From the sequence record NC_110934.1: a DNA stretch of 64,000 bases; one strand, given 5' to 3'. The translations under genes and the position numbers were made by a program. Below are positions 779 to 16,153 of this stretch, one piece after another; position 1 is the first letter of the stretch; each line of letters begins with the position of its first letter. This stretch comes from Klebsiella phage KPP2018. The notes under the pieces are model-generated. The model worked only from the letters and a program-made list of their open reading frames with translations. It did not search any database and was not told the origin of the DNA.

Positions 779-781
779 ATA

Positions 782-2470: not shown

Positions 2471-2477
2471 TTCAAAC

Positions 2478-2969: not shown

Positions 2970-3012
2970 AGAAAAACCCCAGACTACTTATTCAATAGCT
3001 GGGGTTTGTTAT
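2970..3012 (-). terminator. Rho-independent terminator (ccccagc...gctgggg plus a T-run) after CDS 3016..3321
   Basis: Hairpin followed by tttttctgtat on the minus strand. Confidence 0.6.
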
Positions 3013-3015
3013 TAA

Positions 3016-3321
3016 TTACAGATCGGGGCGTTCATCTTCGAACGCCACGAAGCCATCAAATTCATCATTTGAAATACCACCAGTATAGGTGATGTCCGCA
3101 ATCATCGCTTCCATTTTCCGGATCTCCGAGGTTTTCATGCCTGCTTTACTATTCTTATAGTATTTGCGAGGGTTCCCACACATCCAACAAGAACAGATGC
3201 AAGGAGTAGTAGTGACAATACCTAACCGCTTAGGGCTTTCTTCATGTGGAAAGATTGTCCAATACTTCTTGCGGTTGTTCTTCACACGTTGCCGGTGATG
3301 ACGTCTTAATGCTCGATCCAC
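3016..3321 (-). CDS. Cys-rich zinc-finger-like protein, 101 aa
   Basis: CICSCWMCGNP motif. Confidence 0.6.
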   Translation of the reverse strand: MDRALRRHHRQRVKNNRKKYWTIFPHEESPKRLGIVTTTPCICSCWMCGNPRKYYKNSKAGMKTSEIRKMEAMIADITYTGGISNDEFDGFVAFEDERPDL

Positions 3322-3402
3322 ACATTTCTCCTAAAACTTGGGAGATAAATGGAGTTTGCTCGACTACCTTGCGTAGTTCGGAGAAACCGTATCCAAACCC
3401 CA

Positions 3403-3771
3403 TTACATCGCCTGAGTAAATGTACGACTAATAACGTCGTTCTGTTGTTCACGAGTCAGTGCATTAAATCGAACAGCGTAGCCAGAGACACGGATGGTCA
3501 ACTGATGATATTTTTCAGGATGTTTCTGCGCATCCAAAAGCTGATCACGGCTTAACACATTGACATTTAGGTGCTGACCACCTTCGATTTGAGGGGCGAC
3601 TTCCACTTTGACTTCACGGAAGGCTTCGGGATCGAATTGTGGTGTGATACCTTCTAGATCTTCAACTAGAACTTTCTGTTTAAGTTCACCATTGTCGGAG
3701 TATAGCTGAATAATCTGATTTTCATGAACAAGGTTAATTACGCCAGATTTAAGATTTTGATATGCTTTCAT
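3403..3771 (-). CDS. Hypothetical protein, 122 aa
   Basis: ORF. Confidence 0.6.
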
Positions 3772-3813
3772 TAGATCTCCCCGATGTTAGAATTTGGCTC
3801 AGCTCTTTATTCT

Positions 3814-4008
3814 TTATACTTTTCCATAGTATACGGAAACTGTCTTACCAGTTTGGTTCATGACGTATGCTACTTCATCTTCTTTTAAAAAGATGGCTTG
3901 ATCTACTCCAACTATAGCCAATCTCTTATTTCTAGGATTAAAGCTTACGCTTTTGCCCGTATGGATATGTTCACCATTCTTGGCTGACATTATTTTAATT
4001 GTTAACAT
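3814..4008 (-). CDS. Hypothetical small protein, 64 aa
   Basis: ORF directly downstream of a tRNA. Confidence 0.45.
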   Translation of the reverse strand: MLTIKIMSAKNGEHIHTGKSVSFNPRNKRLAIVGVDQAIFLKEDEVAYVMNQTGKTVSVYYGKV

Positions 4009-4045
4009 AGCTGCTCCTAAATTTAGCTATCTCTAGCTATTTTAA

Positions 4046-4122
4046 TGGTAGTTAGTAGTGGATTTGAACCACTGTAGTCGCTCCGTATGAGGGAGGTGCA
4101 TAACCACTCTGCCAACTAACTG
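4046..4122 (-). tRNA. tRNA-Met/Ile2 (anticodon CAT); CCA encoded
   Basis: Cloverleaf read by hand; T-arm motif; anticodon loop CTCATAC. Confidence 0.7.
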
Positions 4123-4217
4123 TTATGTTTTACTAGACTAAGTAAGTATTCTTTATACTCTTTAGACCAATTAGCTTTTTTAAACTTTCCTGGACGCATA
4201 GTCTTAATTCCTAAATT

Positions 4218-4294
4218 TGGTACTCCGGGAGGGATTTAAACCCCCGATCTCTCGGTTATCAGCCGAGTGCTTTAGATCGCTAAGCTACCGAAGC
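4218..4294 (-). tRNA. tRNA-Ile (GAT)
   Basis: Hand fold; loop CTGATAA; CCA encoded. Confidence 0.75.
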
Positions 4295-4295
4295 A

Positions 4296-4502
4296 TTAAT
4301 ATTTAATTGCAGAACGTTTACCATTTCTAGGCGCATCTGGAAGTCGTGCACGTTCTGCCATTCTTCGCTTAATCTTTGAGATATTTTCTAGTGTTTGTTC
4401 TTCAGGCTTAATACCTGAAACACTACACCACTGATTACCATCCCATGCGGTAATGATCATAACACCATTACCCATAATCTTTTCTGTGAAAGTAATTCTC
4501 AT
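4296..4502 (-). CDS. Hypothetical protein, 68 aa
   Basis: ORF. Confidence 0.45.
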   Translation of the reverse strand: MRITFTEKIMGNGVMIITAWDGNQWCSVSGIKPEEQTLENISKIKRRMAERARLPDAPRNGKRSAIKY

Positions 4503-4795
4503 TATAGCAACTCATCTAAGCAAGAGGTATATTTAAGTTTACCATCTTTATCTACTTTGATTTCGACTTCCGCTCGTGGTACTTGACGAACTACACCATG
4601 AATCATCTTATAGCGAATGCCTTTAGCTGGTTCACGATCTTTTGGAAATACTTGCTTAACCGTTACTACCTTGAAACCCTCACGCGGTGTTAACACTACT
4701 ACTTGATCACCTTCTTTGATCTTCCAAGAGCTAGGAAATTCATAGGTATAGCGTTGACCACCAGTTTGGAACACAACAGAAAGATAACGTTTCAT
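4502..4795 (-). CDS. Hypothetical protein, 97 aa
   Basis: ORF; promoter at 4803..4873. Confidence 0.55.
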   Translation of the reverse strand: MKRYLSVVFQTGGQRYTYEFPSSWKIKEGDQVVVLTPREGFKVVTVKQVFPKDREPAKGIRYKMIHGVVRQVPRAEVEIKVDKDGKLKYTSCLDELL

Positions 4796-4802
4796 TTGGT
4801 TT

Positions 4803-4873
4803 CCCTCTCATTAATTTATATAAATATTATAACAATAAATAAGAGAGAAAGCAAATGAATTTTTAATAAAGTT
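4803..4873 (-). promoter_or_regulatory. T5-type early promoter (-10 at 4826..4831, -35 at 4849..4854)
   Basis: Motif family. Confidence 0.7.
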
Positions 4874-5057
4874 TAGTCACTTCATAAACTATACTACGAG
4901 ATTCTTTATTACGTTGTATTAAATTAGCATATGCTTCTTCAGCTTCATTTTTAGTATTAAAGTCTATAACGTGAGAGGTATTAGCTCTGTTTGATTGGCT
5001 ATACCAGATAACTACTAGGAGTTTAAACATACTAATCCTTAAATTGGTGCTGGGCAC
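4863..5057 (-). CDS. Hypothetical small protein, 64 aa
   Basis: ORF. Confidence 0.4.
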   Translation of the reverse strand: MPSTNLRISMFKLLVVIWYSQSNRANTSHVIDFNTKNEAEEAYANLIQRNKESRSIVYEVTKLY

Positions 5058-5131
5058 AGGATTCGAACCTGCAACGGGATTACTCCTCCTGATTACAAAT
5101 CAGGTGCATTCAACCATTCTGCCAACCCAGC
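5045..5131 (-). tRNA. Atypical 87-nt type-II-shaped tRNA (15-nt extra arm) with anticodon TGT (Thr) as read
   Basis: Acceptor GCTGGGT/GCCCAGC, A73, CCA encoded; anticodon loop TTTGTAA; extra arm AGGAGTAATCCCGTT. Confidence 0.6.
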
Positions 5132-5296
5132 AGAACCCGTTATTTCAACGGGATTTCTTTTTCAATAACAGGGGACTTGTCAGTCATGACTGTCATTGCC
5201 ATTTGTTGTAGAAATTCAAAGGTGAAGGCTACACGTTCTTCACCAATCTCTACTTCTACACGTTTCTTTTGTTTATCGATCTTGACTTTCAGATTA

Positions 5297-5518
5297 TCAG
5301 CCATCTTCGGGTTCTCGTTGCTGCGCTACTTCTAGCCAGTCTGGTAGAAGAAACTTTGTACGAAATTCTTCGTAAGTTTCTTTGGGATAAAAGCTAAAAC
5401 CTCCTTTCTCGTCATTCAGGATAACAGAGCCGTCAGTTTGTTCGTATGCTCGGTATGTTTCTCCAATAACAATAACTCGTTTATCGGTACTTTTATTACG
5501 AAATTCAAAAACGTGCAT
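5297..5518 (-). CDS. Hypothetical protein, 73 aa
   Basis: ORF. Confidence 0.5.
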   Translation of the reverse strand: MHVFEFRNKSTDKRVIVIGETYRAYEQTDGSVILNDEKGGFSFYPKETYEEFRTKFLLPDWLEVAQQREPEDG

Positions 5519-5534
5519 AACGTTTCCTTAAAGT

Positions 5535-5610
5535 TGGAGCGGCTAGAGGGAATCGAACCCTACTCAGCGAGGCTTGGAAGGCCTGCGACACAACCCGTGT
5601 GCTTAACCGC
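5535..5610 (-). tRNA. tRNA-Gly (TCC)
   Basis: Hand fold; loop CTTCCAA; short D-arm. Confidence 0.7.
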
Positions 5611-5618
5611 TTATTGTT

Positions 5619-5694
5619 TGGCTGGAGAAGGAGGAATCGAACCTACCATTAACGGAGTCAAAGGCCGTTGTGCTAACCGTTACACTACTCTCCA
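5619..5694 (-). tRNA. tRNA-Gln (TTG)
   Basis: U1:A72; loop CTTTGAC. Confidence 0.7.
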
Positions 5695-5700
5695 ATTATT

Positions 5701-5776
5701 TGGCTGGAGTGCCTGGGATCGAACCAGGAACCTTCGGAGTCAGAGGCCGACGATCTGCCAATTGATCTACACTCCA
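5701..5776 (-). tRNA. tRNA-Gln (CTG)
   Basis: U1:A72; loop CTCTGAC. Confidence 0.7.
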
Positions 5777-5784
5777 ATAACCCT

Positions 5785-5985
5785 TTACTCTACAGGAACC
5801 GTGGCGATTGGTTCTGGATCTTCTAAACGTTTGCCTTCATGATCTACTCGAATAACTCCGCATCCTTCGCAAATCACAACAGCACCGTAGCCTTCTTTAA
5901 CTTCAGCTTCTGTAATCAAACCAGAAAGATCACCAGTATCTCTGCCCCACATATCAATGGAGCATTGTTTGCAGAAATCAGCCAT
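5785..5985 (-). CDS. Zinc-ribbon small protein, 66 aa (two CxxC pairs)
   Basis: ORF. Confidence 0.5.
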   Translation of the reverse strand: MADFCKQCSIDMWGRDTGDLSGLITEAEVKEGYGAVVICEGCGVIRVDHEGKRLEDPEPIATVPVE

Positions 5986-6010
5986 ATTTTATTTCCTATT
6001 TAAGTTAATT

Positions 6011-6087
6011 TGGGGTGGCTAGTGGAATTCGAATCCACATAGGCCTGATTCACAATCAGGATCATTAACCAATTATGATATAGCCAC
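6011..6087 (-). tRNA. tRNA-His (GTG)
   Basis: Loop TTGTGAA; CCA encoded. Confidence 0.7.
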
Positions 6088-6300
6088 AATTGAAAACTCG
6101 CAGGGTTAGCGAAACCTTCCTCAATTAGCATGTTCTAGAATACTAATCAAGTTATCTCCTATTGCACGCAGCTCAAGACGAGTACGAATTTTCAATTGTG
6201 GCGGCTCTCCGAAACTCTTCTACTCTAGCCTTAGCAGCTTACTCCCGAACGCATGTCGGGAAAGTCTTACTAAGAGCATCAAATAGCACCGTTACACTTT
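6088..6300 (-). ncRNA. Candidate structured RNA: about 120-nt region closed by a 14-bp stem (ccacaattgaaaa...ttttcaattgtgg) next to tRNA-His
   Basis: Long perfect inverted repeat; no ORF; lies in a transcribed tRNA block. Confidence 0.3.
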
Positions 6301-6321
6301 GAGCCATAGATATATCAAGAA

Positions 6322-6440
6322 GCAGAAGGACTTGAACCTTCACGAGATAGACCATTTATCTCAGCCGCTTTATGAGGTATGTTGCAAGGAGTGGATGTTC
6401 CTTATAAACCTTTTAGGCAGCCCCGTCTACCGATTCCGGC
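6322..6440 (-). other. tRNA-like element with a perfect T-arm (GAAGG TTCAAGT CCTTC) but no acceptor pairing I could find
   Basis: T-arm motif at 6331..6347; the remaining cloverleaf could not be closed by hand. Confidence 0.3.
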
Positions 6441-6471
6441 ATACTTCAAGAATTTTTATAAACCAGCAGAA

Positions 6472-6645
6472 GCCTCATTTAAAGCATCAACAATAGCCTC
6501 ACGTTGGGTCATTCCATACCCGGTGGAATCTAGGTGTGGCAAATAAGCCTTCCATCCCTTATCTGTTTCATGAAGACATGCTTTAAATTTTGTACCATCC
6601 TTCATTGTTACAGTAACTGTTTTGCTCATAAGATTTCCTTATAGT
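6472..6645 (-). CDS. Small protein of about 57 aa (MSKTVTVTMKDGTKFKACLHETDKGW...)
   Basis: Hand-translated; shorter than the ORF-track cutoff. Confidence 0.35.
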
Positions 6646-6649
6646 TAAT

Positions 6650-6739
6650 TGGCAGAAGATAATGGAGTCGAACCATCACCGTATCGCTACAGCGGGCTGG
6701 TTTTCAAGACCAGTTACGTACCACTACGTCCTATCTTCT
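6650..6739 (-). tRNA. tRNA-Ser (TGA), type II
   Basis: Loop CTTGAAA; long extra arm; G73; CCA encoded. Confidence 0.75.
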
Positions 6740-6745
6740 ATTGTT

Positions 6746-6836
6746 TGGCGGAAGAGGAGAGATTTGAACTCTCAAGCCGTTTTACCAGTCAGCCACTTTC
6801 CAAGCGGTTTTCGTCGCCAATTCGATTTGCTCTTCC
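6746..6836 (-). tRNA. tRNA-Ser (GGA), type II
   Basis: Loop TTGGAAA; long extra arm; G73. Confidence 0.65.
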
Positions 6837-6860
6837 AATAATAAGATGATGCCTCTATCA

Positions 6861-6905
6861 CACCAGGCAGTTACGCCTCGCTGGGATTCGAACCCATTAA
6901 AACAG
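6861..6905 (-). other. Orphan T-arm or tRNA 3' fragment (TGGG TTCGAAT CCCA) with no matching 5' half
   Basis: T-loop motif only. Confidence 0.3.
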
Positions 6906-6948
6906 CTCAACCAAGATAGTAGGTTTAATTTACTCTGACCATCAAATT

Positions 6949-7025
6949 TGGTGCGTGACAAGGGATTCGAACCCTCAAAACCCGACTTCTAAGGACGGTA
7001 TGTATGCCAATTCCATCAATCACGC
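6949..7025 (-). tRNA. Atypical type-I tRNA with Leu anticodon TAG, A73 and a 5-nt variable loop
   Basis: Loop CTTAGAA; a T:T mismatch in the anticodon stem; CCA encoded. Confidence 0.55.
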
Positions 7026-7030
7026 ATGTT

Positions 7031-7109
7031 TGGTGGAGAATAACGGAATCGAACCGTTCTGATGTCCTCGGTGCAAGCGAGGTGTCCACTCCATGCAGAC
7101 CCATTCCCC
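7031..7109 (-). tRNA. tRNA-Ala (TGC) with a G3:U70 wobble
   Basis: Loop CTTGCAC; G3:T70 is the Ala identity pair. Confidence 0.75.
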
Positions 7110-7320
7110 AAATTCTTTAGTTTACTAAGGCTATTAGCTCGGCGTAACTACAGCACCTTCGCTTCAAGCGGAAGGAACCGCGTCATCTCGCAAACCCGAT
7201 ACACTATTCAGTTGCCGCTGAATCTAGTGGACTAATCTAGAACTTCTCCCGAATCGTAGGGATCGTGCTTTTTGGCAGCCAGTCCTAGGTCGAGCTAATA
7301 CCTTAGTGAACTATGATGAG
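7110..7320 (-). ncRNA. Candidate small RNA: about 210 nt, no ORF, hairpins, downstream of a T5-type promoter and upstream of the tRNAs
   Basis: Inverted repeats ccttcgc/gcggaagg and ctagtggactaatctag. Confidence 0.3.
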
Positions 7321-7326
7321 GATTTC

Positions 7327-7398
7327 TCCTCATCAATTTATATAAATATTATAACAAGAAATTAAGCATCAAGCAAGTACATTTTTAGCGATTTCTTG
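7327..7398 (-). promoter_or_regulatory. T5-type early promoter firing into the ncRNA/tRNA block
   Basis: Motif family. Confidence 0.7.
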
Positions 7399-7737
7399 TA
7401 GTTCCTTTACATCACGAACGTAAAGGTAATCAGAGCTTCCAGAGTGCATACTTTGCATAACCACACCTTCATCTGGTGCATTATCCTTCAGAGTAATTCC
7501 TAACCAGAACTCGGCAAAACTAGGTGTTATCTCACCTTGACTTGCCTTGAATACATCATATTCTGTAAGTTCTTGACCAGTAGATAATCCCAAATATACA
7601 GAACTAAGATCAATCTCTTTATGAGACTCATAAAACTCCGATAGATCCTTTTCCATATCCCAGCCATGCTGTAGCGCGAACTCCATTGTCACATGACCGA
7701 AATAACCTTGAATCTTGCTTGATAATTGCATTTGCAA
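7369..7737 (-). CDS. Hypothetical protein, 122 aa
   Basis: ORF. Confidence 0.6.
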   Translation of the reverse strand: MQMQLSSKIQGYFGHVTMEFALQHGWDMEKDLSEFYESHKEIDLSSVYLGLSTGQELTEYDVFKASQGEITPSFAEFWLGITLKDNAPDEGVVMQSMHSGSSDYLYVRDVKELQEIAKNVLA

Positions 7738-7756
7738 TTCCTTATTTTGAGTTAAT

Positions 7757-7830
7757 TGGTACTCGGTGATAGAATCGAACTATCGCAACCGCCGTGTAAA
7801 GACGGGGTTCTCCCATTAAACTAACCGAGC
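7757..7830 (-). tRNA. tRNA-Val (TAC)
   Basis: Loop TTTACAC. Confidence 0.7.
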
Positions 7831-7834
7831 AATT

Positions 7835-7913
7835 TGGTAGATCGCCTGGGACTCGAACCCAGAACCTTCCGATTAAAAGTCGGATGCTACTAAACCTATT
7901 GAGCTAGCGATCT
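7835..7913 (-). tRNA. tRNA-Lys (TTT)
   Basis: Loop CTTTTAA. Confidence 0.7.
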
Positions 7914-7916
7914 ATT

Positions 7917-8084
7917 AGTAACCATTGTATACTTCTTTAATAGAGTGAACCTTCAAGTAAGGGTGATTAGTATTAAACTCTGACATTACTTCATCCCAAT
8001 TTTTACCATAATGGGCAAGTAAGGATTTTGATGTATTCTTACCTGAACGTTTGTCGCTTACTACTAATCGAAATACTTTCATTT
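7917..8084 (-). CDS. Small protein of about 55 aa (MKVFRLVVSDKRSGK...)
   Basis: Hand-translated. Confidence 0.35.
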
Positions 8085-8102
8085 CGAAATCCCCTATTAA
8101 AA

Positions 8103-8180
8103 TGGAAGCGGGTGCAGGAATCGAACCTACCTCTTTCTAGCTTATGAGACTAGTGATCTCTACCAGAGATCTAACCCGCA
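8103..8180 (-). tRNA. tRNA-Met/Ile2 (CAT) with a 1:72 mismatch
   Basis: Loop CTCATAA. Confidence 0.65.
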
Positions 8181-8186
8181 ATTGTT

Positions 8187-8262
8187 TGGTCAGTGCGGCA
8201 GGACTCGAACCTGCGACCCGAAGCATCCAAGGCTCCCACGCTACCAACTGCGCTACGCACTG
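8187..8262 (-). tRNA. tRNA-Pro (TGG) with C1:G72
   Basis: Loop CTTGGAT. Confidence 0.75.
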
Positions 8263-8303
8263 TTAATTCTTTTATTGTGGAGGAATATTAATAATTCGTC
8301 CGT

Positions 8304-8471
8304 CTACACAATAAACGGTACTAGGAATTGTACTATATATATGTAGAAATTCTTTATATTACTCTCCCCGCCACAGAAATTTTTAGCAAATTCATACTCT
8401 TTATTAATGGTTGAGTCAAATTTAAAACAACCAGTAAGTAGGAATACAGATAGTAATAAAATTTTCTTCAT
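8304..8471 (-). CDS. Small lipoprotein, 55 aa (lipobox LLTGC)
   Basis: Hand-translated MKKILLLSVFLLTGCFKF...; promoter at 8478..8552. Confidence 0.45.
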   Translation of the reverse strand: MKKILLLSVFLLTGCFKFDSTINKEYEFAKNFCGGESNIKNFYIYIVQFLVPFIV

Positions 8472-8477
8472 TTAGCT

Positions 8478-8552
8478 TTCCTTCTCTTCACTTTATAAAA
8501 TATATTATACAGATAATTAAGCAGAATAGCAAATGAATTTTTAATAAATTTA
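8478..8552 (-). promoter_or_regulatory. T5-type early promoter
   Basis: Motif family. Confidence 0.7.
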
Positions 8553-8559
8553 CTTATTG

Positions 8560-8683
8560 TGTAGGCCACCTGGAGGCTACCAACCCCACGGCTGACAAAG
8601 AAGTTTGCGAGACCTCTCTTAAATGCCAGAATAGATCCGCCGATCTATCGGAACCTACATAATAAGTAAACTTTATAGTGTCA
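8560..8683 (-). ncRNA. Unassigned non-coding stretch with hairpins inside the tRNA block
   Basis: No ORF and no tRNA fold found. Confidence 0.2.
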
Positions 8684-8804
8684 TTCTAGACAGGACTCGA
8701 ACCTGTTATCACTTGTGCGGACTTACGAGAACCATTCTTTCACTCGAATCGAACGAGCTTCTGCCCTCGCCAAGCTGGTTTCCCCGTCAACCACGCTAGA
8801 ATGT
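8684..8804 (-). other. 120-nt tRNA-like element: acceptor-like closing stem ATTCTAG/CTAGAAT enclosing two T-arm hairpins; no CCA
   Basis: Two T-arm motifs (GCTCG TTCGATT CGAGT and ACAGG TTCGAGT CCTGT). Confidence 0.4.
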
Positions 8805-8924
8805 TTAATTGTTTTCAGTGCAAGAGTCCGAGTCTTGGACACGACCGCTTCGCAAGTACATAGGCAGCTTATCATGAATCAGCACTTCCGAATTGCTAGC
8901 TCCGTGTTCTGCACTGAAATTTTA

Positions 8925-9272
8925 TTAGTTTAACCGTAAAGTATTATCTACTTCACCATTAATTGTTCGGCATTCTTCTGGGATTGCCGGGGTGGCCTTG
9001 TATTCCCACCATTCAGAACCGTCATATTCACCACGTTCTAACCAAGTTCCATCAGTAAACCATACGTTACCATAAAGCAATTGTCCACCGAAACCAGAAT
9101 CATATTTAAAGTCTAGATTATTTAGAAAATCTTCAATATCTTTTTCTGTATAACCTACGGGTAATACCCAAACTTCTTTGTCCCCATAATAACCGAATTC
9201 TATCTTAATACACTTAACTTCAGACTTAGTATTCTTTAGGGCAAGTAACAACTCTTCTTTAGCATTAATCAT
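8925..9272 (-). CDS. Hypothetical protein, 115 aa
   Basis: ORF. Confidence 0.6.
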   Translation of the reverse strand: MINAKEELLLALKNTKSEVKCIKIEFGYYGDKEVWVLPVGYTEKDIEDFLNNLDFKYDSGFGGQLLYGNVWFTDGTWLERGEYDGSEWWEYKATPAIPEECRTINGEVDNTLRLN

Positions 9273-9298
9273 AACATATTTCTCGTGCTAGTTTAATT

Positions 9299-9375
9299 TG
9301 GCGCGACCGATGGGATTCGAACCCACATTCTCTCCAGTGACAGGGGAGTACCATTACCAAGCCAGCCCCGGTCGC
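9299..9375 (-). tRNA. tRNA-Asp (GTC); copy 1 carries a C31:U39 mismatch (9336 a), whereas copy 2 has a paired G
   Basis: Loop CTGTCAC; G73; the one SNP found between the copies. Confidence 0.75.
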
Positions 9376-9384
9376 ATAATTCAT

Positions 9385-9570
9385 TTACTCAGCTTTGAGT
9401 TTTTCAATAGCTGCATTAAGTTCCTTAAGAAACTCTTTTCGTACATTAAGACGATTAAGACTTACTAGTATATCATGTTTAAGTTCTTCGATATATTTCT
9501 TCTCAACTTCAATATTGTTGATAGTGCTATCACGATGAACTTCTAGCTGCGCAATTACATTCTTGGACAT
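9385..9570 (-). CDS. Coiled-coil small protein, 61 aa
   Basis: ORF. Confidence 0.45.
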   Translation of the reverse strand: MSKNVIAQLEVHRDSTINNIEVEKKYIEELKHDILVSLNRLNVRKEFLKELNAAIEKLKAE

Positions 9571-9672
9571 GCTTGTTTCCTCAGTTATTAATAAAAATGG
9601 TATCTGTGGCTGAATTCGATATCAGCAATGATAGCTGGTTGGCTACCGGTTTACTTAACTCTACACAGAATT

Positions 9673-9755
9673 TGGCGGGCCGTGTAGGATTCGAACCTAC
9701 GTTGTCTTTCGACATGGATTAACAGTCCACCGCCAAACCGCTTGGCTAACGACCC
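9673..9755 (-). tRNA. tRNA-Asn (GTT) with an unusual 13-nt extra arm
   Basis: Loop CTGTTAA; extra arm GTCGAAAGACAAC. Confidence 0.65.
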
Positions 9756-9907
9756 TAAATTTATATTGCTGACTAGGATTTTCACCTAGACGGAGTTAGC
9801 ACCGTAGCGTGTAGCGGCATACCCCTCCAAACCGTGCCTCATCTTTCAATTACGGAGACAGTGTTCCTACGCGTGCCTGAATTGATTTAACAATTCTTTC
9901 AGCAAAT
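9756..9907 (-). ncRNA. Unassigned structured non-coding stretch between tRNA-Asn and tRNA-Cys
   Basis: Hairpins; no ORF. Confidence 0.2.
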
Positions 9908-9983
9908 TGGACGACCGCATGAGATTTGAACTCACATAAGAAGGATTTGCAATCCTTCTCCTAAGCCATTCAGCCAACGGTCG
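9908..9983 (-). tRNA. tRNA-Cys (GCA), U73
   Basis: Loop TTGCAAA. Confidence 0.75.
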
Positions 9984-10007
9984 ATTTATCTTGTTCTGTC
10001 ATGTTGC

Positions 10008-10075
10008 TCCCCCAGTTCAATTTATGTAATTATTATACAGAACTTTTGGAAACTAAGCAACTACATTTTTTAAGA
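10008..10075 (-). promoter_or_regulatory. T5-type early promoter firing into the tRNA block
   Basis: Motif family. Confidence 0.65.
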
Positions 10076-10340
10076 ATTTGATGCCTTTCTTTCTCTTCTT
10101 ATATTTCCACGTTAATGGATTCTGTCGATTATGAACACTTGAGATCTTTGTCTCATCAAAGTTCTTCAATATCATGTAATCACAAGATAGTTGTTCTAAT
10201 GGAATGTGATCACCGTCAAAAGCGTGTACATAAGGTTGTTGACTAGCACGATAATGATAGACTTTGTTAATTCTACGTTTCAGCGACTTATCCGCGCAGT
10301 AAATAAAGAAGTTTTCAGGATGCATCAGCAGCTCCTTCAA
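10053..10340 (-). CDS. Hypothetical protein, 95 aa
   Basis: ORF. Confidence 0.55.
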   Translation of the reverse strand: MKELLMHPENFFIYCADKSLKRRINKVYHYRASQQPYVHAFDGDHIPLEQLSCDYMILKNFDETKISSVHNRQNPLTWKYKKRKKGIKFLKNVVA

Positions 10341-10417
10341 TTTGGTGCACCCTGTTCGTATCGAACGAACCTCTCAAGCTCTTCAGGCAAGCGCTAATCC
10401 ATCTCAGCTAAAGGTGC
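10341..10417 (-). tRNA. tRNA-Phe (GAA)? The anticodon stem is weak
   Basis: Loop CTGAAGA; two T:T mismatches in the stem. Confidence 0.45.
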
Positions 10418-10424
10418 AAATTTT

Positions 10425-10495
10425 GGCAGGGGTAAAGGTATTCGAAACCTTTTCATGGGTTTTGGAGGCCCATTTGCAACCTATGCGTACCCCAA
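10425..10495 (-). tRNA. tRNA-Trp (CCA), compact 71 nt with a reduced D-arm
   Basis: Loop CUCCAAA, as in E. coli tRNA-Trp. Confidence 0.55.
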
Positions 10496-10504
10496 TTATT
10501 AATT

Positions 10505-10578
10505 GGCACACCCAACGAGGATCGAACTCGTGTTCCCACTGTGAAAGAGTGGTGTCCTAACCGCTAGACGATAGGTGC
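10505..10578 (-). tRNA. tRNA-Glu (TTC)
   Basis: Loop CTTTCAC. Confidence 0.7.
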
Positions 10579-10585
10579 ATTAAAT

Positions 10586-10673
10586 TGGTGGGGAAAGATG
10601 GAGTCGAACCACCCGAGTCGCAATGACAACTGATTTACAGTCAGCTCTGCTACCACTTACAGAATATTTCCCC
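10586..10673 (-). tRNA. tRNA-Tyr (GTA), type II
   Basis: Loop CUGUAAA; A73. Confidence 0.75.
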
Positions 10674-10803
10674 ATATTTAGAAGTATTCAAAAATTCTCA
10701 TTTAAACACTTTTAAATATGTTTCCAAATTAGATAAATATTATATCAAGTTTTATAGTATTGGGCAAGTCAAATTTTAAAGAACTTGCCCAATGCTGTAT
10801 TAG

Positions 10804-11079
10804 TTAGTCGAACTTAGGAGTGACAGTTAAGGAGAACGGAAGTTCAAAAACTTCTTCGCCCTCATCACTAATAGTGATTACACGACCTTTAAGTTCAGAC
10901 ATTGAAATATCAATATCAGCTTTTGCATCTGGAGCCATGCCAGCTTCAATACATTTAGCTTTAATTTCCGGCAGAAGTTCTACATCGTAGAAATAAAGCC
11001 ATTCAATCTCACCTTCCCAGCCTTCCCAGGATTTACAGATTGCACTTTCAATACCAGCAGCTATAACACGATTTTGCAT
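10804..11079 (-). CDS. Acidic hypothetical protein, 91 aa
   Basis: ORF; promoter at 11088..11162. Confidence 0.6.
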   Translation of the reverse strand: MQNRVIAAGIESAICKSWEGWEGEIEWLYFYDVELLPEIKAKCIEAGMAPDAKADIDISMSELKGRVITISDEGEEVFELPFSLTVTPKFD

Positions 11080-11087
11080 TCGTTAAC

Positions 11088-11162
11088 TCCTTCATCAATT
11101 TATATAACTATTATATCAGAAATTTAAAGCAAAAGGCAAGTACATTTTTAAAAATTCTGTTT
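11088..11162 (-). promoter_or_regulatory. T5-type early promoter
   Basis: Motif family. Confidence 0.7.
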
Positions 11163-11169
11163 GGAGGAG

Positions 11170-11376
11170 CTAAACTCCAGATTCTTCAGCCAAGTCTAGA
11201 CTAATAAGAGATATAGCCATAATTGCTGCTCCGTGCTCTTTTTCTCCAGTCTCTTTAGCTAGAGTTATAATATCAAGAAATTGCTTATGAAAATCTGCAA
11301 CCTCTTGAGTTATACCTGCCTCAGCAATCATGCCTTTAAGCATGAAGCGTTGTGCGGTAATTTCAGGATTAGCCAT
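11170..11376 (-). CDS. Hypothetical protein, 68 aa
   Basis: ORF. Confidence 0.5.
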   Translation of the reverse strand: MANPEITAQRFMLKGMIAEAGITQEVADFHKQFLDIITLAKETGEKEHGAAIMAISLISLDLAEESGV

Positions 11377-11551
11377 GTTGTTTCTCCAGTTTCATCTTTA
11401 ATAGTCTACAAATAAAATCAATGTCTTCATCCGTGCCTAGATCTCTATCTTCAAGGGTTGCCTTGAAGTTTTTAGTCAATTCCATGAGAATAACTTCTCT
11501 AGAACGACGTGTTGGCGGAGGTGGATGTCTATACATCTTATTTCCTTAATT

Positions 11552-11628
11552 TGGTAGGGGTGGTGGGATTCGAACCCACAAAACCTGAATTTTAAGTCCA
11601 GTACCTATGCCAATTCGATTACACCCCC
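11552..11628 (-). tRNA. Atypical type-I tRNA with Leu anticodon TAA, A73 and a 5-nt variable loop
   Basis: Loop CTTAAAA. Confidence 0.55.
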
Positions 11629-11635
11629 ATGTAGT

Positions 11636-11824
11636 TTAGTCAATTACTTTTGAGGCTTCAAGGTAGTCGATATAGTGTACGTTTTCTACCGTAATCATAT
11701 AATCCGCCACTTTATCCATAGCTTGGGCTTCAGAGGTAGCTCTGGCTAACCTATATCCTTTTCTATACTCATCCGGGTATTCTCTATCTTGAATAAACAC
11801 AACATAAACTATATATAGATCCAT
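11636..11824 (-). CDS. Hypothetical protein, 62 aa
   Basis: ORF. Confidence 0.45.
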   Translation of the reverse strand: MDLYIVYVVFIQDREYPDEYRKGYRLARATSEAQAMDKVADYMITVENVHYIDYLEASKVID

Positions 11825-11843
11825 TTGTGACCTCTATTTAATT

Positions 11844-11921
11844 TGGTGGCTCCCCGAGGATTCGAACCTACGTACCTTCCGGTTATGAGCCGGGTGCTCA
11901 TACCATATGAGCTTGAGAACC
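11844..11921 (-). tRNA. tRNA-Met/Ile2 (CAT); the third CAT tRNA
   Basis: Loop CTCATAA. Confidence 0.6.
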
Positions 11922-11927
11922 AAAATC

Positions 11928-12016
11928 TGGCGGAAGAAGTGGGAATCGAACCCACAAGGCTATATTTCAAACCGACAGATTAGCAATCTGCTGCAATACC
12001 ATTATGCTATTCTTCC
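11928..12016 (-). tRNA. tRNA-Ser (GCT), type II
   Basis: Loop TTGCTAA; G73. Confidence 0.75.
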
Positions 12017-12037
12017 GAATTTATAAGATATATTATA

Positions 12038-12607
12038 TTAGAAATTTAGCTTCATAGCAAGAAAATTTTTCAAGTTTTCGGTAGACATCTCATCCACATC
12101 TACAGGAGAAACAAATCCATTTAATTGTCTAGCAAACTTTTCACCAGCAGGATCATTGTCCCCAACAGCTACCAATTTAAAAGGTAGTAATTTCAGTTGC
12201 TTTAATAACGCTTTTCCTGGAGAAGAACCCAACATTGCCAGGGCTGGATAACCCGCATTATGTAATGCAACTGCCTTAAATACAGATTCAGCAATCAATA
12301 CTACTTTTTCATCCCCATTGAGAGTTTCTAGTCCCCATACACACTGTGTAGTAGAATAAGTAAAGTATTTAGCTTCAAAGGGGCACTTACCATGACCTTT
12401 TGGAGCAGAAGGATTATAAGTTTGATAGCCCCTCAACATTCCAGAGAAATCATACAACGGGACTGTTAGCCACCCTTCCGGACTTAACCAGCAATGATAT
12501 TTATCTGTATCAAATCCTCTAGATAAGAGGTGCTGTGTTAGCTCATCAACATTCATATTTGGTTCCTCTCTCAAATTTATAGATATATTATACAGAGAAT
12601 TTAGCAT
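12038..12607 (-). CDS. TOPRIM-domain protein (small primase-like), 189 aa
   Basis: VVLIAES...VAVGDNDPAG resembles the Toprim E and DxD motifs. Confidence 0.55.
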   Translation of the reverse strand: MLNSLYNISINLREEPNMNVDELTQHLLSRGFDTDKYHCWLSPEGWLTVPLYDFSGMLRGYQTYNPSAPKGHGKCPFEAKYFTYSTTQCVWGLETLNGDEKVVLIAESVFKAVALHNAGYPALAMLGSSPGKALLKQLKLLPFKLVAVGDNDPAGEKFARQLNGFVSPVDVDEMSTENLKNFLAMKLNF

Positions 12608-12625
12608 TCAAGCAATCAAATTTTT
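12548..12625 (-). promoter_or_regulatory. T5-type early promoter
   Basis: Motif family. Confidence 0.7.
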
Positions 12626-12731
12626 TAACTTTTTAGAGGAAAATCATAGGGCACTTAAGGGTAGCAGATAAGTGGTGAGGACCAAAATTTGTGACCCCAC
12701 TAAAAATCCAGGGGCAATTTTTAAAGACCCC

Positions 12732-12760
12732 TTGACATTTTCGCTGGGGTAGTGTAAAGT
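12732..12760 (+). promoter_or_regulatory. Sigma70 promoter (TTGACA, 17-nt spacer, TG-TAAAGT) for the plus-strand low-complexity operon; copy at 42196..42224
   Basis: Read directly. Confidence 0.6.
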
Positions 12761-12822
12761 ATATGTTATGGATGAGTGATCAAAGAGACACACATTTTCT
12801 ATATACTAGGAGGTGTCAAAAA

Positions 12823-13593
12823 ATGACAGAAGAAGTAGCTAAGAGTCCTGAGACCGTCGCTAGCGTTGCAGCAGAACTGCACCGTCACGAGGAATCAGAT
12901 AAGAAAAAGTGGGAGAAGGTCAGAGCCTACGAAGAGAAACATCGTGAACACGATGAAGATGATGAAGAAGATGACGATGATGAGTATTGTCATAAATATG
13001 GAAAACGTAAAATGCAAGAACCAGTAAACGTATTCACTAGTGGCTTCCCTGGCCTAATGGGTGGTTACCCAGCAAACGCAGGTGCTTTCGGTGGTGAAGG
13101 TATGGGACTATTCGGAGCTATCCTAATCGGTGCTCTATTAACAGGCGGATTCGGTGGTTTTGGTGGATTTGGTGGACGTGGTGTAGTTGGTGAAGGTACC
13201 GCAGTTGATGCAGTACTTCAGAACCAAGATACCGCTAGTATTCTAGCAGCTATTAACACTACTCGTACAGAAGCTAACCAGGGTACTGGAGCTGTTTTAA
13301 GCGCAGTTAACAATGGTTTTAGCCAGACATCCCAAAACCAGAGCCGTGATACTCAGTCTGTACTAACTACGATCTATGGTACGGGTGCTAATCTGTCTAA
13401 TCAAATCTGCCAGGAAACTCGCAACGTTATTCAGGGTCAGTTCGATCTTTCTCGCCAGATTGATCAATCTTTCGCAGCTAACCAGATAGCTCGTGCACAA
13501 GATAAGTTTGATTCTGCACAGATCGCTTTCCAGCAGACTTTACAAACTAATAACCAGTTTGCCGCTGTTCAGGCTCAGATGTGTGCTAACCAG
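12823..13593 (+). pseudogene. 5' 257 codons of the Gly-rich/acidic protein gene (intact copy 42287..43279), cut off by the repeat junction
   Basis: Identical to copy 2 up to 13593, then reads into unrelated sequence. Confidence 0.85.
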
Positions 13594-13699
13594 TTATGAT
13601 AATGATCAAATCGATCAGCAAACGGCGGGCTTTTTGCTGGACACGCTGAAAGCGGAACACTGCACTAAAAAGCAAGCGGCAAAAATTATTTTAATGTAA
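13594..13699 (+). pseudogene. C-terminal fragment (...DNDQIDQQTAGFLLDTLKAEHCTKKQAAKIILM) of a gene whose 5' part is missing
   Basis: In-frame coding-like sequence that starts exactly at the junction. Confidence 0.5.
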
Positions 13700-13747
13700 T
13701 TAATAAAGGGGCGAAAGTAACGCCCCACTAACTAGGGAGTATTACAA

Positions 13748-13897
13748 ATGATTATTTTTCGAGCTATTCTGGCGGGTATCTTGGGCGCTATTTTATCTTT
13801 GTTTGCAATAGCTTTCGATGTTCACGCGGTTATTATCGGCGCGGGTATCGCTGCATTTTCTTATCTGCTGGGCTGCATGACTAGTAAAGGAGAATAA
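13748..13897 (+). CDS. 49-aa membrane peptide
   Basis: Hand-translated MIIFRAILAGILGAILSLFAIAFDVHAVIIGAGIAAFSYLLGCMTSKGE. Confidence 0.45.
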   Translation: MIIFRAILAGILGAILSLFAIAFDVHAVIIGAGIAAFSYLLGCMTSKGE

Positions 13898-13899
13898 AA

Positions 13900-14112
13900 A
13901 TGATCCGCAACGTTTCTCTTGCACGTTCGAAAGGCTTTAAGCTGGTGGATGCTAACACGTTCGAGCGGGAAGATTGTAAAATCGAATATGTAGCACGTAA
14001 CAAAAATGCCTTTCGTGTTACTGAGAAAAAATTTGATAAGCGCGGCAACGTGATCGCTGAAACGGTTAAGCACTTTGCCACCTTTTACGCTGCGTTTCGT
14101 GGGGTACTATGA
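13900..14112 (+). CDS. Hypothetical protein, 70 aa
   Basis: ORF; its stop overlaps the next start (ATGA). Confidence 0.5.
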   Translation: MIRNVSLARSKGFKLVDANTFEREDCKIEYVARNKNAFRVTEKKFDKRGNVIAETVKHFATFYAAFRGVL

Positions 14113-14249
14113 AAAGCGTTATCGTTATTGCCCTTGCAATGGTTGGCGGTTTTACCGCCACCTTATTCAAAAATGACCCCATTTCATTGGGGATCTTTAT
14201 GTTATTATCTGGCTATCTAATTGGGAGGTTGTCAAATGGTTATTTATGA
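14109..14249 (+). CDS. 46-aa membrane peptide
   Basis: MKSVIVIALAMVGGFTATLF... Confidence 0.45.
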   Translation: MKSVIVIALAMVGGFTATLFKNDPISLGIFMLLSGYLIGRLSNGYL

Positions 14250-14580
14250 GGGCAATCGTTTTGTTGCTAATTGCCGTCCTGCATTATTAGCAAACTACTT
14301 AAATCAGCTTTCCCCAGCTTATAAGGGTGTTATTAATATTTATGAGGGCAAGGCGCATTATAAAATCAATGCGGTCGTTGCCCGTGAACTAGCATTTCAA
14401 TTTTTGACCTTTGCATCTTGTGATATTCAGGTCATGGGGGAAGCATTAATTGCAGAAAATGAAGATGATTTTATTAATATTTTCCGCAAGATATGCACCG
14501 AGCGGCTGATAATGAAAGGCGCGTATATTCAATCCACGGCTGATAGTATTGAAACAGCGTTTCGAAAGGTGGCGCAATGA
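14236..14580 (+). CDS. Hypothetical protein of about 114 aa
   Basis: ORF 14221..14580; an SD-like ggaggt sits upstream of the Met at 14236. Confidence 0.5.
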   Translation: MVIYEGNRFVANCRPALLANYLNQLSPAYKGVINIYEGKAHYKINAVVARELAFQFLTFASCDIQVMGEALIAENEDDFINIFRKICTERLIMKGAYIQSTADSIETAFRKVAQ

Positions 14581-14735
14581 AAAAGTTTTTAATAGCTGGC
14601 ATGTTTCCGTTGTTGCCTTATGTAATTTGCTGGGCTTTATACGCTCATGGCGCTAGTGTTCCCGCTGTGGCTTCATTTGGTGTATCGGCGGGCTTTCTAG
14701 CTGGACTATTAGCAAGCGTATACTTACGCAAATAA
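14577..14735 (+). CDS. 52-aa membrane peptide
   Basis: MKKFLIAGMFPLLPYVICWALY...; start overlaps the upstream stop. Confidence 0.45.
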   Translation: MKKFLIAGMFPLLPYVICWALYAHGASVPAVASFGVSAGFLAGLLASVYLRK

Positions 14736-14754
14736 TTAATAATGGGGCGTTATT

Positions 14755-14949
14755 ATGAGCAATAAAATTGTTGTAACCAAAATCAGTACAATGGTTGATG
14801 TTTTTTACGTGCCCGATACGCCGGAAAACCGACAAGCGGTCGAGCGTGGAGAATATGATAAAGTGATTTATGATCACGATGGTTATTATCAGCATTTAGT
14901 GGATTCCTACGGGGAGGAGGAGAAGATCACGCATCGACTACCAGACTAA
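14755..14949 (+). CDS. Hypothetical protein, 64 aa
   Basis: ORF. Confidence 0.5.
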   Translation: MSNKIVVTKISTMVDVFYVPDTPENRQAVERGEYDKVIYDHDGYYQHLVDSYGEEEKITHRLPD

Positions 14950-14983
14950 TAATCACGGGGCGCAACTATCAGGAAGTGCCCCC

Positions 14984-15013
14984 AATTCTCAAATGAGAAT
15001 GATTCTCATTTGA
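14984..15013. repeat. Perfect 23-bp palindrome caaatgagaatgattctcatttg
   Basis: Read directly; the same core recurs in iteron family 1. Confidence 0.8.
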
Positions 15014-15233
15014 CCGCGCCCGCGATGGTTAGCCTGCTAATGGTTAGGGTGTTACGTGTCGCCTTGTGTGATCGTTAGCGTGCTAACTAATTTTCAAGCC
15101 TCCTTCAATTTTGCCCTTGTTTTAGTATCCCCAACAAAATTAAACGCGTTAGAATGCGTTTGAGAGCGTTTTAACGCTATATTAGAATTATTCACTGCGT
15201 AGGAATACTGTATATTTATACAGTAGGATAAGC

Positions 15234-15242
15234 TGTGGATAA
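15234..15242 (-). promoter_or_regulatory. DnaA box (TTATCCACA on the minus strand)
   Basis: Plus strand reads tgtggataa, the exact consensus. Confidence 0.7.
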
Positions 15243-15245
15243 GTC

Positions 15246-15254
15246 TGTTGATAA
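15246..15254 (-). promoter_or_regulatory. DnaA-like box (TTATCAACA, 1 mismatch)
   Basis: Plus strand reads tgttgataa. Confidence 0.5.
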
Positions 15255-15306
15255 CGCTTCAAAACGGCTAGAATTTTGTCAAGTCAAATCGTGCTGTTAG
15301 TAAGTC

Positions 15307-15315
15307 TGTGGATAA
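15307..15315 (-). promoter_or_regulatory. DnaA box (TTATCCACA)
   Basis: tgtggataa; the flanks repeat the first box (aagtctgtKgataac). Confidence 0.7.
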
Positions 15316-15392
15316 CTTAAATAACAGTGTTTCTCACTTCCGTTCTTAAATGAGAATCATTATCATTTGCATTTCACTATCTAACTAATAAT

Positions 15393-15525
15393 CATTCCGC
15401 TTTTTAAATGAGAATCATTCCGCTTTTTAAATGAGATTGATTCTCATTCCGCTTTTTAAATGCGAATTATTATCATTCTCATTCCGCTTTTTAAATGAGA
15501 ATGATTCTTATTATCATTCGTATTT
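15393..15525. repeat. Iteron family 1: 4 direct copies of cattccgctttttaaatgagaat(N)att at 15393, 15416, 15445 and 15480, each with a palindromic aaatgagaat/attctcattt core
   Basis: Read directly. Confidence 0.85.
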
Positions 15526-15551
15526 AGCGCAGGGCAATTGCCCTGCGCTTT

Positions 15552-16153
15552 TGTGCAAATCCGACATTGCTCCACGGGTGTTACGTGCGGGCGTGTATGT
15601 GCGAATCCGACAATCTTTGGTAGTGTGCAAATCCGACCCGAAAAATTTTTATAGTGTGCAAATCCGACAATGAATTTTCCCAAAAACTCCAGCAATCTCG
15701 AACTGCGTTCGAATCCTGTGGGGTATGTGCAAATTCGACACGGTTTTTCTAGGATTAAGATGTGCAAATCCGACAAGATTTTTGTGACTTCGATTGGAGG
15801 GTGTGTGATTGTGTGGGTTTGGGGAGAAGATGAGAGAGCGAGAGAAAATAAGGGAAGAAACTGGAGGAGCAGCATGGGTGGCGTGTAACGCCTGATTTGC
15901 TGCGTTTTTGGGGAAGAGTTGAGAAGATTTGGGTTAATTGGGCTTGGGGCGAGATAAAGTAAAATTTTATTAGCAAAATGGGGCAAAATAGCTTGACAAG
16001 TGAAAATTCCTGTGGCTCTAAAAACTCAGGCAATCATGGGCCTTCGGCCCGAAATAATGCTGCTATTTTCAGGAGATTATATGTGCCTAAAAACTTAGGC
16101 ATTTGTGCAAATCCGACCATAAATTTCTAGAAACACAATGTGCAAATCCGACA
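15552..16153. repeat. Iteron family 2: 8 copies of TGTGCAAATCCGACA (0-1 mismatches) at 15552, 15598, 15624, 15655, 15726, 15761, 16104 and 16139
   Basis: Read directly. Confidence 0.85.

What the first reader, a model, noticed from the sequence alone, without database searches (positions are those of the whole stretch)
9336..9336. The two repeat copies differ by a SNP in the tRNA-Asp anticodon stem
Everything I compared between the copies is identical except 9336 a versus 38800 c. In the minus-strand tRNA-Asp(GTC) this is position 39. Copy 2 has a Watson-Crick C31:G39 pair, as in canonical tRNA-Asp, and copy 1 has a C:U mismatch. A difference means the copies were not made by copy-paste. They are either independently evolving paralogues, with one tRNA copy degenerating, or two population haplotypes merged by an assembler.
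Basis: seen in the sequence. Interest (0 to 1): 0.6.

Follow-up and report, generated by a model that had tools for sequence, protein, structure and literature searches.

The report
One-base difference in duplicated phage tRNA-Asp
A 13.6-kb block of a T5-like phage genome appears twice in this window, most likely through an assembly or record-handling error, and the single base that differs (in a tRNA-Asp gene) is an allele seen in no other public sequence, so this is most likely ordinary.

Summary
Window 1..13593 and 29465..43057 are identical except 9336 A versus 38800 C. That base is position 39 of a minus-strand tRNA-Asp(GUC): C31:G39 in copy 2, C31·U39 in copy 1.

The window is a T5-like phage (Tequintavirus, about 97-98% identical to many Salmonella and E. 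coli phages). Window 13594..64000 follows the normal gene order. Copy 1 is an extra piece of the tRNA region. It is joined at 13593|13594 to a point inside the left terminal-repeat region. The joint is blunt, has no microhomology and truncates two genes. It was found in no searched collection. The region is single-copy in every related phage record that matched (353-439, depending on the query).

The G39 form matches 39 phage records exactly. The U39 form was found nowhere.

The most likely reading is one locus written twice: an untrimmed overlap or mis-join, perhaps followed by rotation. The A is then a consensus error or a minor population variant.

A real recent duplication is not excluded, but "degeneration" is not shown. 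There is only one change, it still scores as a tRNA (42.8 versus 49.0 bits), and both of the phage's tRNA-Gln genes carry C31·U39 natively.

Interest is low.

The parts
1..13593 (.). Copy 1 of the repeat. It is an extra copy of the tRNA region, out of the normal gene order. Its left end is cut by the window edge.
   Evidence: Identical to 29465..43057 except at one base. Maps to Salmonella phage Th1 positions about 23.8k-38,175 but is followed by Th1 position 7075.
29465..43057 (.). Copy 2 of the repeat, lying in the normal syntenic position.
   Evidence: Window 13594..64000 is colinear with Th1 from 7075 onward (checked as far as Th1 49,515). Both 29464|29465 and 43057|43058 are continuous in relatives.
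9299..9375 (-). tRNA-Asp(GUC), copy 1, with U39 (C31·U39 mismatch, 4-bp anticodon stem).
   Evidence: ARAGORN. Rfam tRNA score 42.8 bits. Anticodon hairpin -3.3 kcal/mol. This exact sequence is in 0 of 353 phage records and in none of the IMG/VR, metagenome or genome collections.
38763..38839 (-). tRNA-Asp(GUC), copy 2, with G39 (C31:G39), the family-typical form.
   Evidence: ARAGORN. Rfam tRNA score 49.0 bits. Anticodon hairpin -7.3 kcal/mol. 100% identical to 39 phage records. All 25 IMG/VR contigs with this anticodon arm have G39.
9336..9336 (-). The variant base: A on the + strand, U39 in the tRNA. Its counterpart is 38800 (C on the + strand, G39).
13593..13594 (.). The only novel joint: the end of the tRNA-region copy abuts sequence from inside the left terminal-repeat region.
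   Evidence: It joins Th1 38175 to Th1 7075, which is about MM-1 position 7826, inside that phage's annotated LTR 1..10407. There is no microhomology. No phage record spans it. The exact junction sequence is absent from IMG/VR, genome and metagenome contigs.
12763..13599 (+). Truncated copy (278 aa) of the 350-aa ORF at 42227..43279, cut by the joint.
   Evidence: ORF lists. The truncated product is not on record. The full-length 330-aa form is on 14 contigs in normal context.
13594..29464 (.). Unique segment between the copies. It runs from the right part of the terminal-repeat region into the early genes, and its first gene lacks its 5' end.
   Evidence: Colinear with Th1 7075..23281. The start falls inside the homologue of Th1 CDS 6950..7180. 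In other phages the sequence to the left reads ...CAGGCGCT|TTATGAT.

Best explanation
The two 'copies' are most likely one genomic locus written twice. The window comes from a T5-like phage whose normal gene order runs from 13594 to 64000. The first 13,593 bases are a redundant second rendering of the tRNA region, attached by a non-biological joint at 13593|13594. One plausible origin is an untrimmed end-overlap of a contig assembled as a circle, later joined or rotated. Another is a chimeric mis-join. In the overlap case the period would be 29,464 bp. The two renderings would have been built from different read subsets. The A at 9336 is then either a consensus error or a low-frequency variant in the phage stock. 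The phage's real tRNA-Asp is the copy-2 form with C31:G39.

Shown: the single difference, its position in the tRNA, the unique blunt joint, single-copy status in all relatives, and the absence of the U39 allele elsewhere.

Inferred: that the joint is an artefact, and where the A came from.
For: (1) The joint 13593|13594 links Th1-equivalent positions 38175 and 7075. It has no shared bases at the breakpoint and cuts a 350-aa ORF to 278 aa and a small gene at its 5' end.

(2) No phage record spans the joint: 0 of 335 records cover at least 80% of the query. The junction sequence is absent from IMG/VR, 185k species genomes and JGI metagenomes. The truncated ORF product is not on record among 153 billion gene positions.

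(3) The duplicated region is single-copy in all relatives: tRNA-Asp gives 353 places in 353 records, and the first kilobase gives 439 places in 439 records.

(4) The copies differ at 1 of 13,593 bases, whereas the nearest distinct phages differ by about 2%. Both copies therefore derive from one phage stock.

(5) The copy in the normal context carries the universal allele. The out-of-context copy carries an allele found nowhere else.

(6) Untrimmed overlapping ends that inflate a 135-kb replicon 1.4-fold are a documented assembler behaviour (PMC8235852).

(7) Window position 1 falls exactly on the stop codon of a gene, which hints that the sequence was cut or rotated deliberately.

(8) Related records in the listed rows are 84-121 kb. 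A further 29.5 kb would exceed all of them.
Against: No reads are available, so the joint cannot be shown to lack read support. The source record was not found, so the far end of the record cannot be inspected for the matching overlap. Only 13.6 kb of the presumed 29.5-kb overlap is visible. A blunt joint without homology is also what illegitimate recombination would give. The gene-boundary start could simply reflect how windows were cut.
Confidence: 0.68

Rival explanations
1. A genuine, very recent segmental duplication in the phage DNA, either a tandem duplication with a 29,464-bp period or an insertion of at least 13.6 kb. It would have arisen by illegitimate recombination, and a new G39U mutation in one tRNA-Asp copy would be tolerated because the other copy is intact.
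For: The sequence as given contains both copies and a clean joint. A no-homology joint fits illegitimate end joining. Near-identity fits a recent event. The U39 gene still scores as a tRNA (42.8 bits).
Against: No relative has the duplication and no public sequence has the joint. The joint destroys two genes. An extra 13.6-29.5 kb would push the genome beyond every related record listed, the longest being 121 kb. My own inference, not tested: a T5-type capsid is unlikely to package that much extra DNA, and 13.6-kb perfect direct repeats would be lost quickly by homologous recombination.
Confidence: 0.17
2. Long-standing paralogues that evolve independently, with the copy-1 tRNA-Asp decaying into a pseudogene.
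For: The mismatch weakens the anticodon hairpin by about 4 kcal/mol and lowers the tRNA model score by 6.2 bits.
Against: One difference in 13,593 bases means there has been almost no independent evolution. No relative carries two copies. The score stays far above the 29-bit gathering threshold. C31·U39 is the conserved native state of both tRNA-Gln genes in this phage group, so the mismatch need not inactivate the tRNA. The chance of a random hit in a tRNA stem is about 7%.
Confidence: 0.03
3. A functional variant. The G39U change would remodel the anticodon arm into a 4-bp stem with a 9-nt loop, for example to escape a host anticodon nuclease or to alter decoding. It would be kept either as a second gene copy or as a selected allele in the phage population.
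For: Changes in the anticodon loops of phage tRNAs have been proposed to evade host tRNA nucleases, including colicin E5 (PMC10264068). From my own knowledge, not checked here, colicin E5's targets include tRNA-Asp. The phage's tRNA-Gln genes already use C31·U39.
Against: The allele is a singleton, absent from every collection searched. The change is in the stem, not the loop. There is no sign of selection. The published proposal concerns loop positions.
Confidence: 0.02

Closest known systems
tRNA-Asp(GUC) gene of the T5-like phage tRNA cluster (Tequintavirus, Demerecviridae)
   Same: Copy 2 is 100% identical to the tRNA-Asp of 39 deposited phages. It differs from T5's own gene only in the T-loop (L017). 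It lies in the same gene order, within a block of 22 tRNA genes.
   Different: Copy 1 has U instead of G at position 39. This state was seen in none of 353 phage records and in none of 25 IMG/VR contigs that share the anticodon arm.
Untrimmed overlapping contig ends or mis-joins in assemblies of small replicons
   Same: A large, near-perfect direct repeat. One blunt joint, unique to this sequence, that cuts genes. One of the copies lies out of its normal context. The artefact is documented for a 135-kb plasmid assembled 1.4 times too large (PMC8235852).
   Different: In a raw contig the two copies sit at opposite ends of the record. Here they are 29.5 kb apart, which needs an extra step (end-to-start joining, rotation or wrap-around). 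That step is not shown.
Long terminal repeats (LTR) of T5-like phages, about 10 kb
   Same: A multi-kilobase exact direct repeat in a T5-like genome. The segment at 13594 starts inside LTR-homologous sequence.
   Different: The repeated block is the tRNA region (Th1 about 23.8k-38.2k), not the pre-early terminal region. Relatives carry it once.
Native C31·U39 anticodon arms of the T5-like tRNA-Gln(UUG) and tRNA-Gln(CUG) genes
   Same: The same C opposite U at 31/39 and the same 4-bp stem.
   Different: In tRNA-Gln the mismatch is conserved across relatives, in 12 of 12 and 14 of 14 loci. In tRNA-Asp it is a singleton.

Membership tests
Bacterial-type tRNA (Rfam RF00005) | Cloverleaf covariance-model score above the gathering threshold (29 bits) | tested here: met
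   Copy 1 scores 42.8 bits and copy 2 scores 49.0 bits. ARAGORN calls both.
tRNA-Asp | GUC anticodon, a CUGUCAC anticodon loop with C38, and a G73 discriminator (identity elements as I recall them for E. coli AspRS) | tested here: met
   Both copies have anticodon GTC, loop CTGTCAC, G before the encoded CCA, and a fully paired acceptor stem. Aminoacylation itself cannot be tested here.
tRNA-Asp | Five-base-pair anticodon stem closed by a standard 31:39 pair | tested here: not met
   This verdict is for copy 1 only, which has C31·U39. Copy 2 meets the feature with C31:G39. Hairpin energy is -3.3 versus -7.3 kcal/mol.
tRNA pseudogene | Loss of tRNA-model score, or disruption of several structural elements | tested here: not met
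   There is one mismatch only, and the score stays 13.8 bits above threshold. The same mismatch is native in the tRNA-Gln genes.
T5-like phage (Tequintavirus) genome | Nucleotide similarity and gene order matching T5-like phages | tested here: met
   97-98% identity to many Salmonella and E. coli Tequintavirus records. Window 13594..64000 is colinear with Th1.
T5-type long terminal repeat | The repeat consists of the pre-early (first-step-transfer) terminal region and is present at both genome ends in relatives | tested here: not met
   The repeat is the tRNA region, which is single-copy in 353-439 relatives.
Genuine segmental or tandem duplication | The novel joint is physically present in the DNA molecules (junction-spanning reads, doubled depth) | not testable with these tools
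   No reads are available. The joint is absent from all searched collections.
Assembly overlap artefact | The same overlap reappears at the other end of the record, and reads support only one copy | not testable with these tools
   The source record was not found. Only 64 kb is visible.

The most novel reading that the evidence does not exclude
The duplication is real, and the phage carries two tRNA blocks. In one block tRNA-Asp has gained G39U, which gives it the same C31·U39 arm that the phage's tRNA-Gln genes use. This variant could resist a host anticodon nuclease or decode differently while the standard copy keeps normal function.
Probability: 0.03. Interest if true: 0.45.

Novelty: not a real feature. 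Interest (0 to 1): 0.1.

Why it matters
If the artefact reading is right, the value is practical. The record behind this window holds at least 13.6 kb of redundant sequence and a false joint. These would inflate its gene and tRNA counts (43 tRNA calls instead of about 23) and create a spurious truncated ORF. The 'variant' tRNA-Asp should not be catalogued as a second gene. If the duplication were real, it would be an unusually large gene amplification in a T5-like phage and a small natural experiment on the 31:39 pair of tRNA-Asp. Nothing found here points that way.

Tried and rejected
(1) Looking for the source record or any sequence with the joint. I ran exact-pattern scans of IMG/VR, species genomes and metagenomes, megablast against 50,697 phage records, and exact-product look-ups of the truncated ORF with two start choices. 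All were negative.

(2) Looking for the U39 allele elsewhere. None was found.

(3) Looking for an identical phage assembled independently, through exact proteins. The best contigs are only about 98% identical, so there is no independent view of this strain.

(4) Testing whether the breakpoint at 13594 is a T5 nick site. In relatives the lost left flank reads ...CAGGCGCT|TTATG, with GCGC one base from the break. However, the published major-nick consensus is R/GCGCRGG (PMC3517423), and the RGG part is not matched on either strand. GCGC also occurs about once per 185 bp in that region. I rejected this as unsupported.

(5) Testing whether the repeat is the T5 LTR. It is not.

(6) Testing whether 29465 is a true repeat boundary. 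Th1 has a 544-bp indel there, but 325 other phages are continuous across it, so it is only the window edge.

(7) Whole-tRNA minimum-free-energy folds. They did not give cloverleaves for either copy and were not informative, so I used the isolated anticodon arm and the covariance-model score instead.

(8) A literature search for T5 packaging limits gave nothing usable. The capsid-capacity argument therefore remains an inference.

Full report
**The observation**

A base-by-base comparison of window 1..13593 with 29465..43057 finds exactly one difference, 9336 A versus 38800 C, and no indels. A self-BLAST agrees: 13,593 aligned, 1 mismatch, 0 gaps. The identity stops abruptly at 13593/43057.

ARAGORN finds the same 21 tRNA genes in each copy. 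They include tRNA-Asp(gtc) on the minus strand at 9299..9375 and 38763..38839. Read on the minus strand, the differing base is raw nucleotide 40 of 77. The anticodon sits at raw 35-37 because the D-loop has one extra base. This puts the difference at canonical position 39, the 3' partner of C31 at the loop end of the anticodon stem.

Copy 2 reads CUCCC-CUGUCAC-GGGAG, with all five pairs standard. Copy 1 reads CUCCC-CUGUCAC-UGGAG, with C31·U39.

**What the window is**

The sequence is a T5-like phage. It is 97-98% identical to many Salmonella and E. coli Tequintavirus records.

Against Salmonella phage Th1, window 13594..64000 is colinear with Th1 from 7075 onward. It runs from the right part of the terminal-repeat region through the early genes, the tRNA block and the nucleotide-metabolism genes (colinearity checked as far as Th1 49,515). 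Copy 2 therefore lies where the tRNA block belongs, and 43057|43058 is ordinary continuous sequence.

Copy 1 corresponds to Th1 about 23.8k-38,175, but it is followed directly by Th1 7075. That point corresponds to about position 7826 of phage MM-1, inside its annotated LTR 1..10407.

The left edge of the repeat is only the window edge. The sequence across 29464|29465 is continuous in 325 related records. The one novel feature is the joint at 13593|13594.

**The joint**

- It is blunt. Copy 1 reads ...GCTAACCAG|TTATGAT. The normal continuation in copy 2 is ...GCTAACCAG|AACTCTC. In relatives the normal left flank of the second segment is ...CAGGCGCT|TTATGAT. No bases are shared at the breakpoint.
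- It cuts a 350-aa ORF (42227..43279) to 278 aa (12763..13599). It also removes the 5' end of a small gene homologous to Th1 CDS 6950..7180.
- None of 335 matching phage records spans it.
- The exact junction sequence is absent from IMG/VR, from one genome each of 185,579 species, and from JGI metagenomes.
- The truncated ORF product is not on record, while the full-length 330-aa form is on 14 contigs in normal context.
- The duplicated region is single-copy in every relative: 353 places in 353 records for tRNA-Asp, and 439 places in 439 records for the first kilobase.

**Which allele is the odd one**

The copy-2 tRNA-Asp is 100% identical to 39 phage records. The copy-1 sequence matches none of 353 records exactly.

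An exact search for the U39 form found nothing in IMG/VR, metagenome contigs or species genomes. A search of IMG/VR that allowed any base at position 39 returned 25 contigs, some with non-orthologous tRNA-Asp genes, and all 25 have G.

The A at 9336 is therefore a derived singleton, and it sits in the out-of-context copy.

**What the change does to the tRNA**

The Rfam tRNA score falls from 49.0 to 42.8 bits, still far above the 29-bit threshold. The isolated anticodon hairpin goes from -7.3 kcal/mol (5-bp stem, 7-nt loop) to -3.3 kcal/mol (4-bp stem, 9-nt loop).

This need not be disabling. Both tRNA-Gln genes of the same phage (5619..5694 and 5701..5776) have C31·U39 natively. That state is conserved in 12 of 12 and 14 of 14 related loci. 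Three further tRNAs here also have non-standard anticodon-stem pairs.

tRNA genes fill 12.8% of the 13.6 kb and their stems about 6.8%. A single random change landing in a stem is therefore not remarkable. 'Degeneration' is not demonstrated.

**Most likely explanation (confidence about 0.68)**

One locus has been written twice. A unique, blunt joint that destroys genes, an out-of-context copy and near-perfect identity form the signature of a redundant overlap or a mis-join. So does the absence of any duplication in hundreds of relatives.

Assemblers are known to leave overlapping ends on small replicons. In one documented case a 135-kb plasmid came out 1.4 times too large (PMC8235852). If such a contig was then closed end to start and rotated, the end|start joint would become internal. 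It would produce exactly the layout seen here, with a period of 29,464 bp.

One small hint points to deliberate cutting. Window position 1 is exactly the last base of the stop codon of a minus-strand 232-aa ORF.

Under this reading the two renderings were built from different reads. The A is then a consensus error or a minor variant in the stock. The change is C to A on the + strand. From general knowledge, that is the class of substitution typical of oxidative-damage artefacts. This is weak evidence only.

The nearest distinct phages differ by about 2%, which would give roughly 270 differences over this length. Two co-assembled strains are therefore excluded, and both copies come from one stock.

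**Rivals**

- *A real, very recent duplication (about 0.17).* It cannot be excluded without reads. It would add 13.6-29.5 kb to a genome whose relatives are at most 121 kb in the listed records. It would leave two broken genes. By my own inference, it would also be unstable to recombination and hard to package.
- *Long-standing paralogues with a decaying copy (about 0.03).* One difference in 13.6 kb and the absence of two-copy relatives contradict this.
- *An adaptive anticodon-arm variant (about 0.02).* The idea comes from the proposal that phage tRNAs evade anticodon nucleases such as colicin E5 (PMC10264068). Nothing here supports it, because the allele is a singleton and lies in the stem.

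**Leads that failed**

A GCGC lies one base from the breakpoint in relatives, which suggested a T5 nick site. The published consensus R/GCGCRGG (PMC3517423) is not matched, and GCGC is dense in that region.

The repeat is not the T5 LTR.

The source record could not be found, so the far end of the record and the reads remain unseen.

**Verdict**

The feature is most likely not biological, and interest is low.

The decisive test is read mapping. It should check junction-spanning reads at 13593|13594, depth over the repeated block, and the allele fraction at the tRNA-Asp site.

Noticed in passing
window 5619..5694 and 5701..5776 (minus strand); second copies at 35083..35158 and 35165..35240: Both tRNA-Gln genes (UUG and CUG) have a native C31·U39 mismatch at the loop end of the anticodon stem. 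It is conserved in 12 of 12 and 14 of 14 related loci.
   Followed up: partly
window 1 (equivalent to 29465): The window, and therefore copy 1, starts exactly on the last base of the stop codon of a minus-strand 232-aa ORF (29465..30163). This suggests a deliberate cut or rotation, or gene-anchored windows. None of the 60 best-matching phage records starts there.
   Followed up: partly
window 11847..11921, 41311..41385 and 45601..45672 (minus strand); also 7031..7109: Rfam calls tRNAs at 11847..11921 / 41311..41385 (40.3 bits) and at 45601..45672 (35.5 bits) that ARAGORN did not report. Conversely, ARAGORN's tRNA-Ala(tgc) at 7031..7109 / 36495..36573 does not reach the Rfam threshold.
   Followed up: no
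window 9299..9375 and 38763..38839 (minus strand): This tRNA-Asp has G rather than the usual U at position 8. Its D-stem consists of one C:G pair and three G·U pairs. Both features are read directly from the sequence and are shared with relatives.
   Followed up: no
window 4046..4121, 6949..7025 and 10343..10417 (minus strand): Other non-standard anticodon-stem pairs occur: tRNA-Met(CAU) has C27·C43, tRNA-Leu(UAG) has U30·U40, and tRNA-Phe has two U·U pairs. These positions are taken from ARAGORN's anticodon coordinates.
   Followed up: no
window about 4791..4875, 7323..7387, 8467..8552, 11087..11150, 22044..22109, 24809..24876, 45877..45943, 46542..46623, 48704..48783 and 50579..50659: A family of short dispersed repeats, 50-90 bp long and 79-90% identical, lies between genes. 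They may be shared promoter or terminator modules of the early region.
   Followed up: no
window 29461..29474, against Th1 23281..23825: Phage Th1 carries an extra 544 bp here relative to this phage, within a few bases of the point where copy 2 begins. 325 other relatives are continuous across it.
   Followed up: yes
window 13594, and relatives L002, L038, L039, L041 and L046: In relatives a GCGC lies one base to the left of the breakpoint (...CAGGCGCT|TTATGAT). It recalls the core of the T5 nick motif but does not fit the full R/GCGCRGG consensus.
   Followed up: yes
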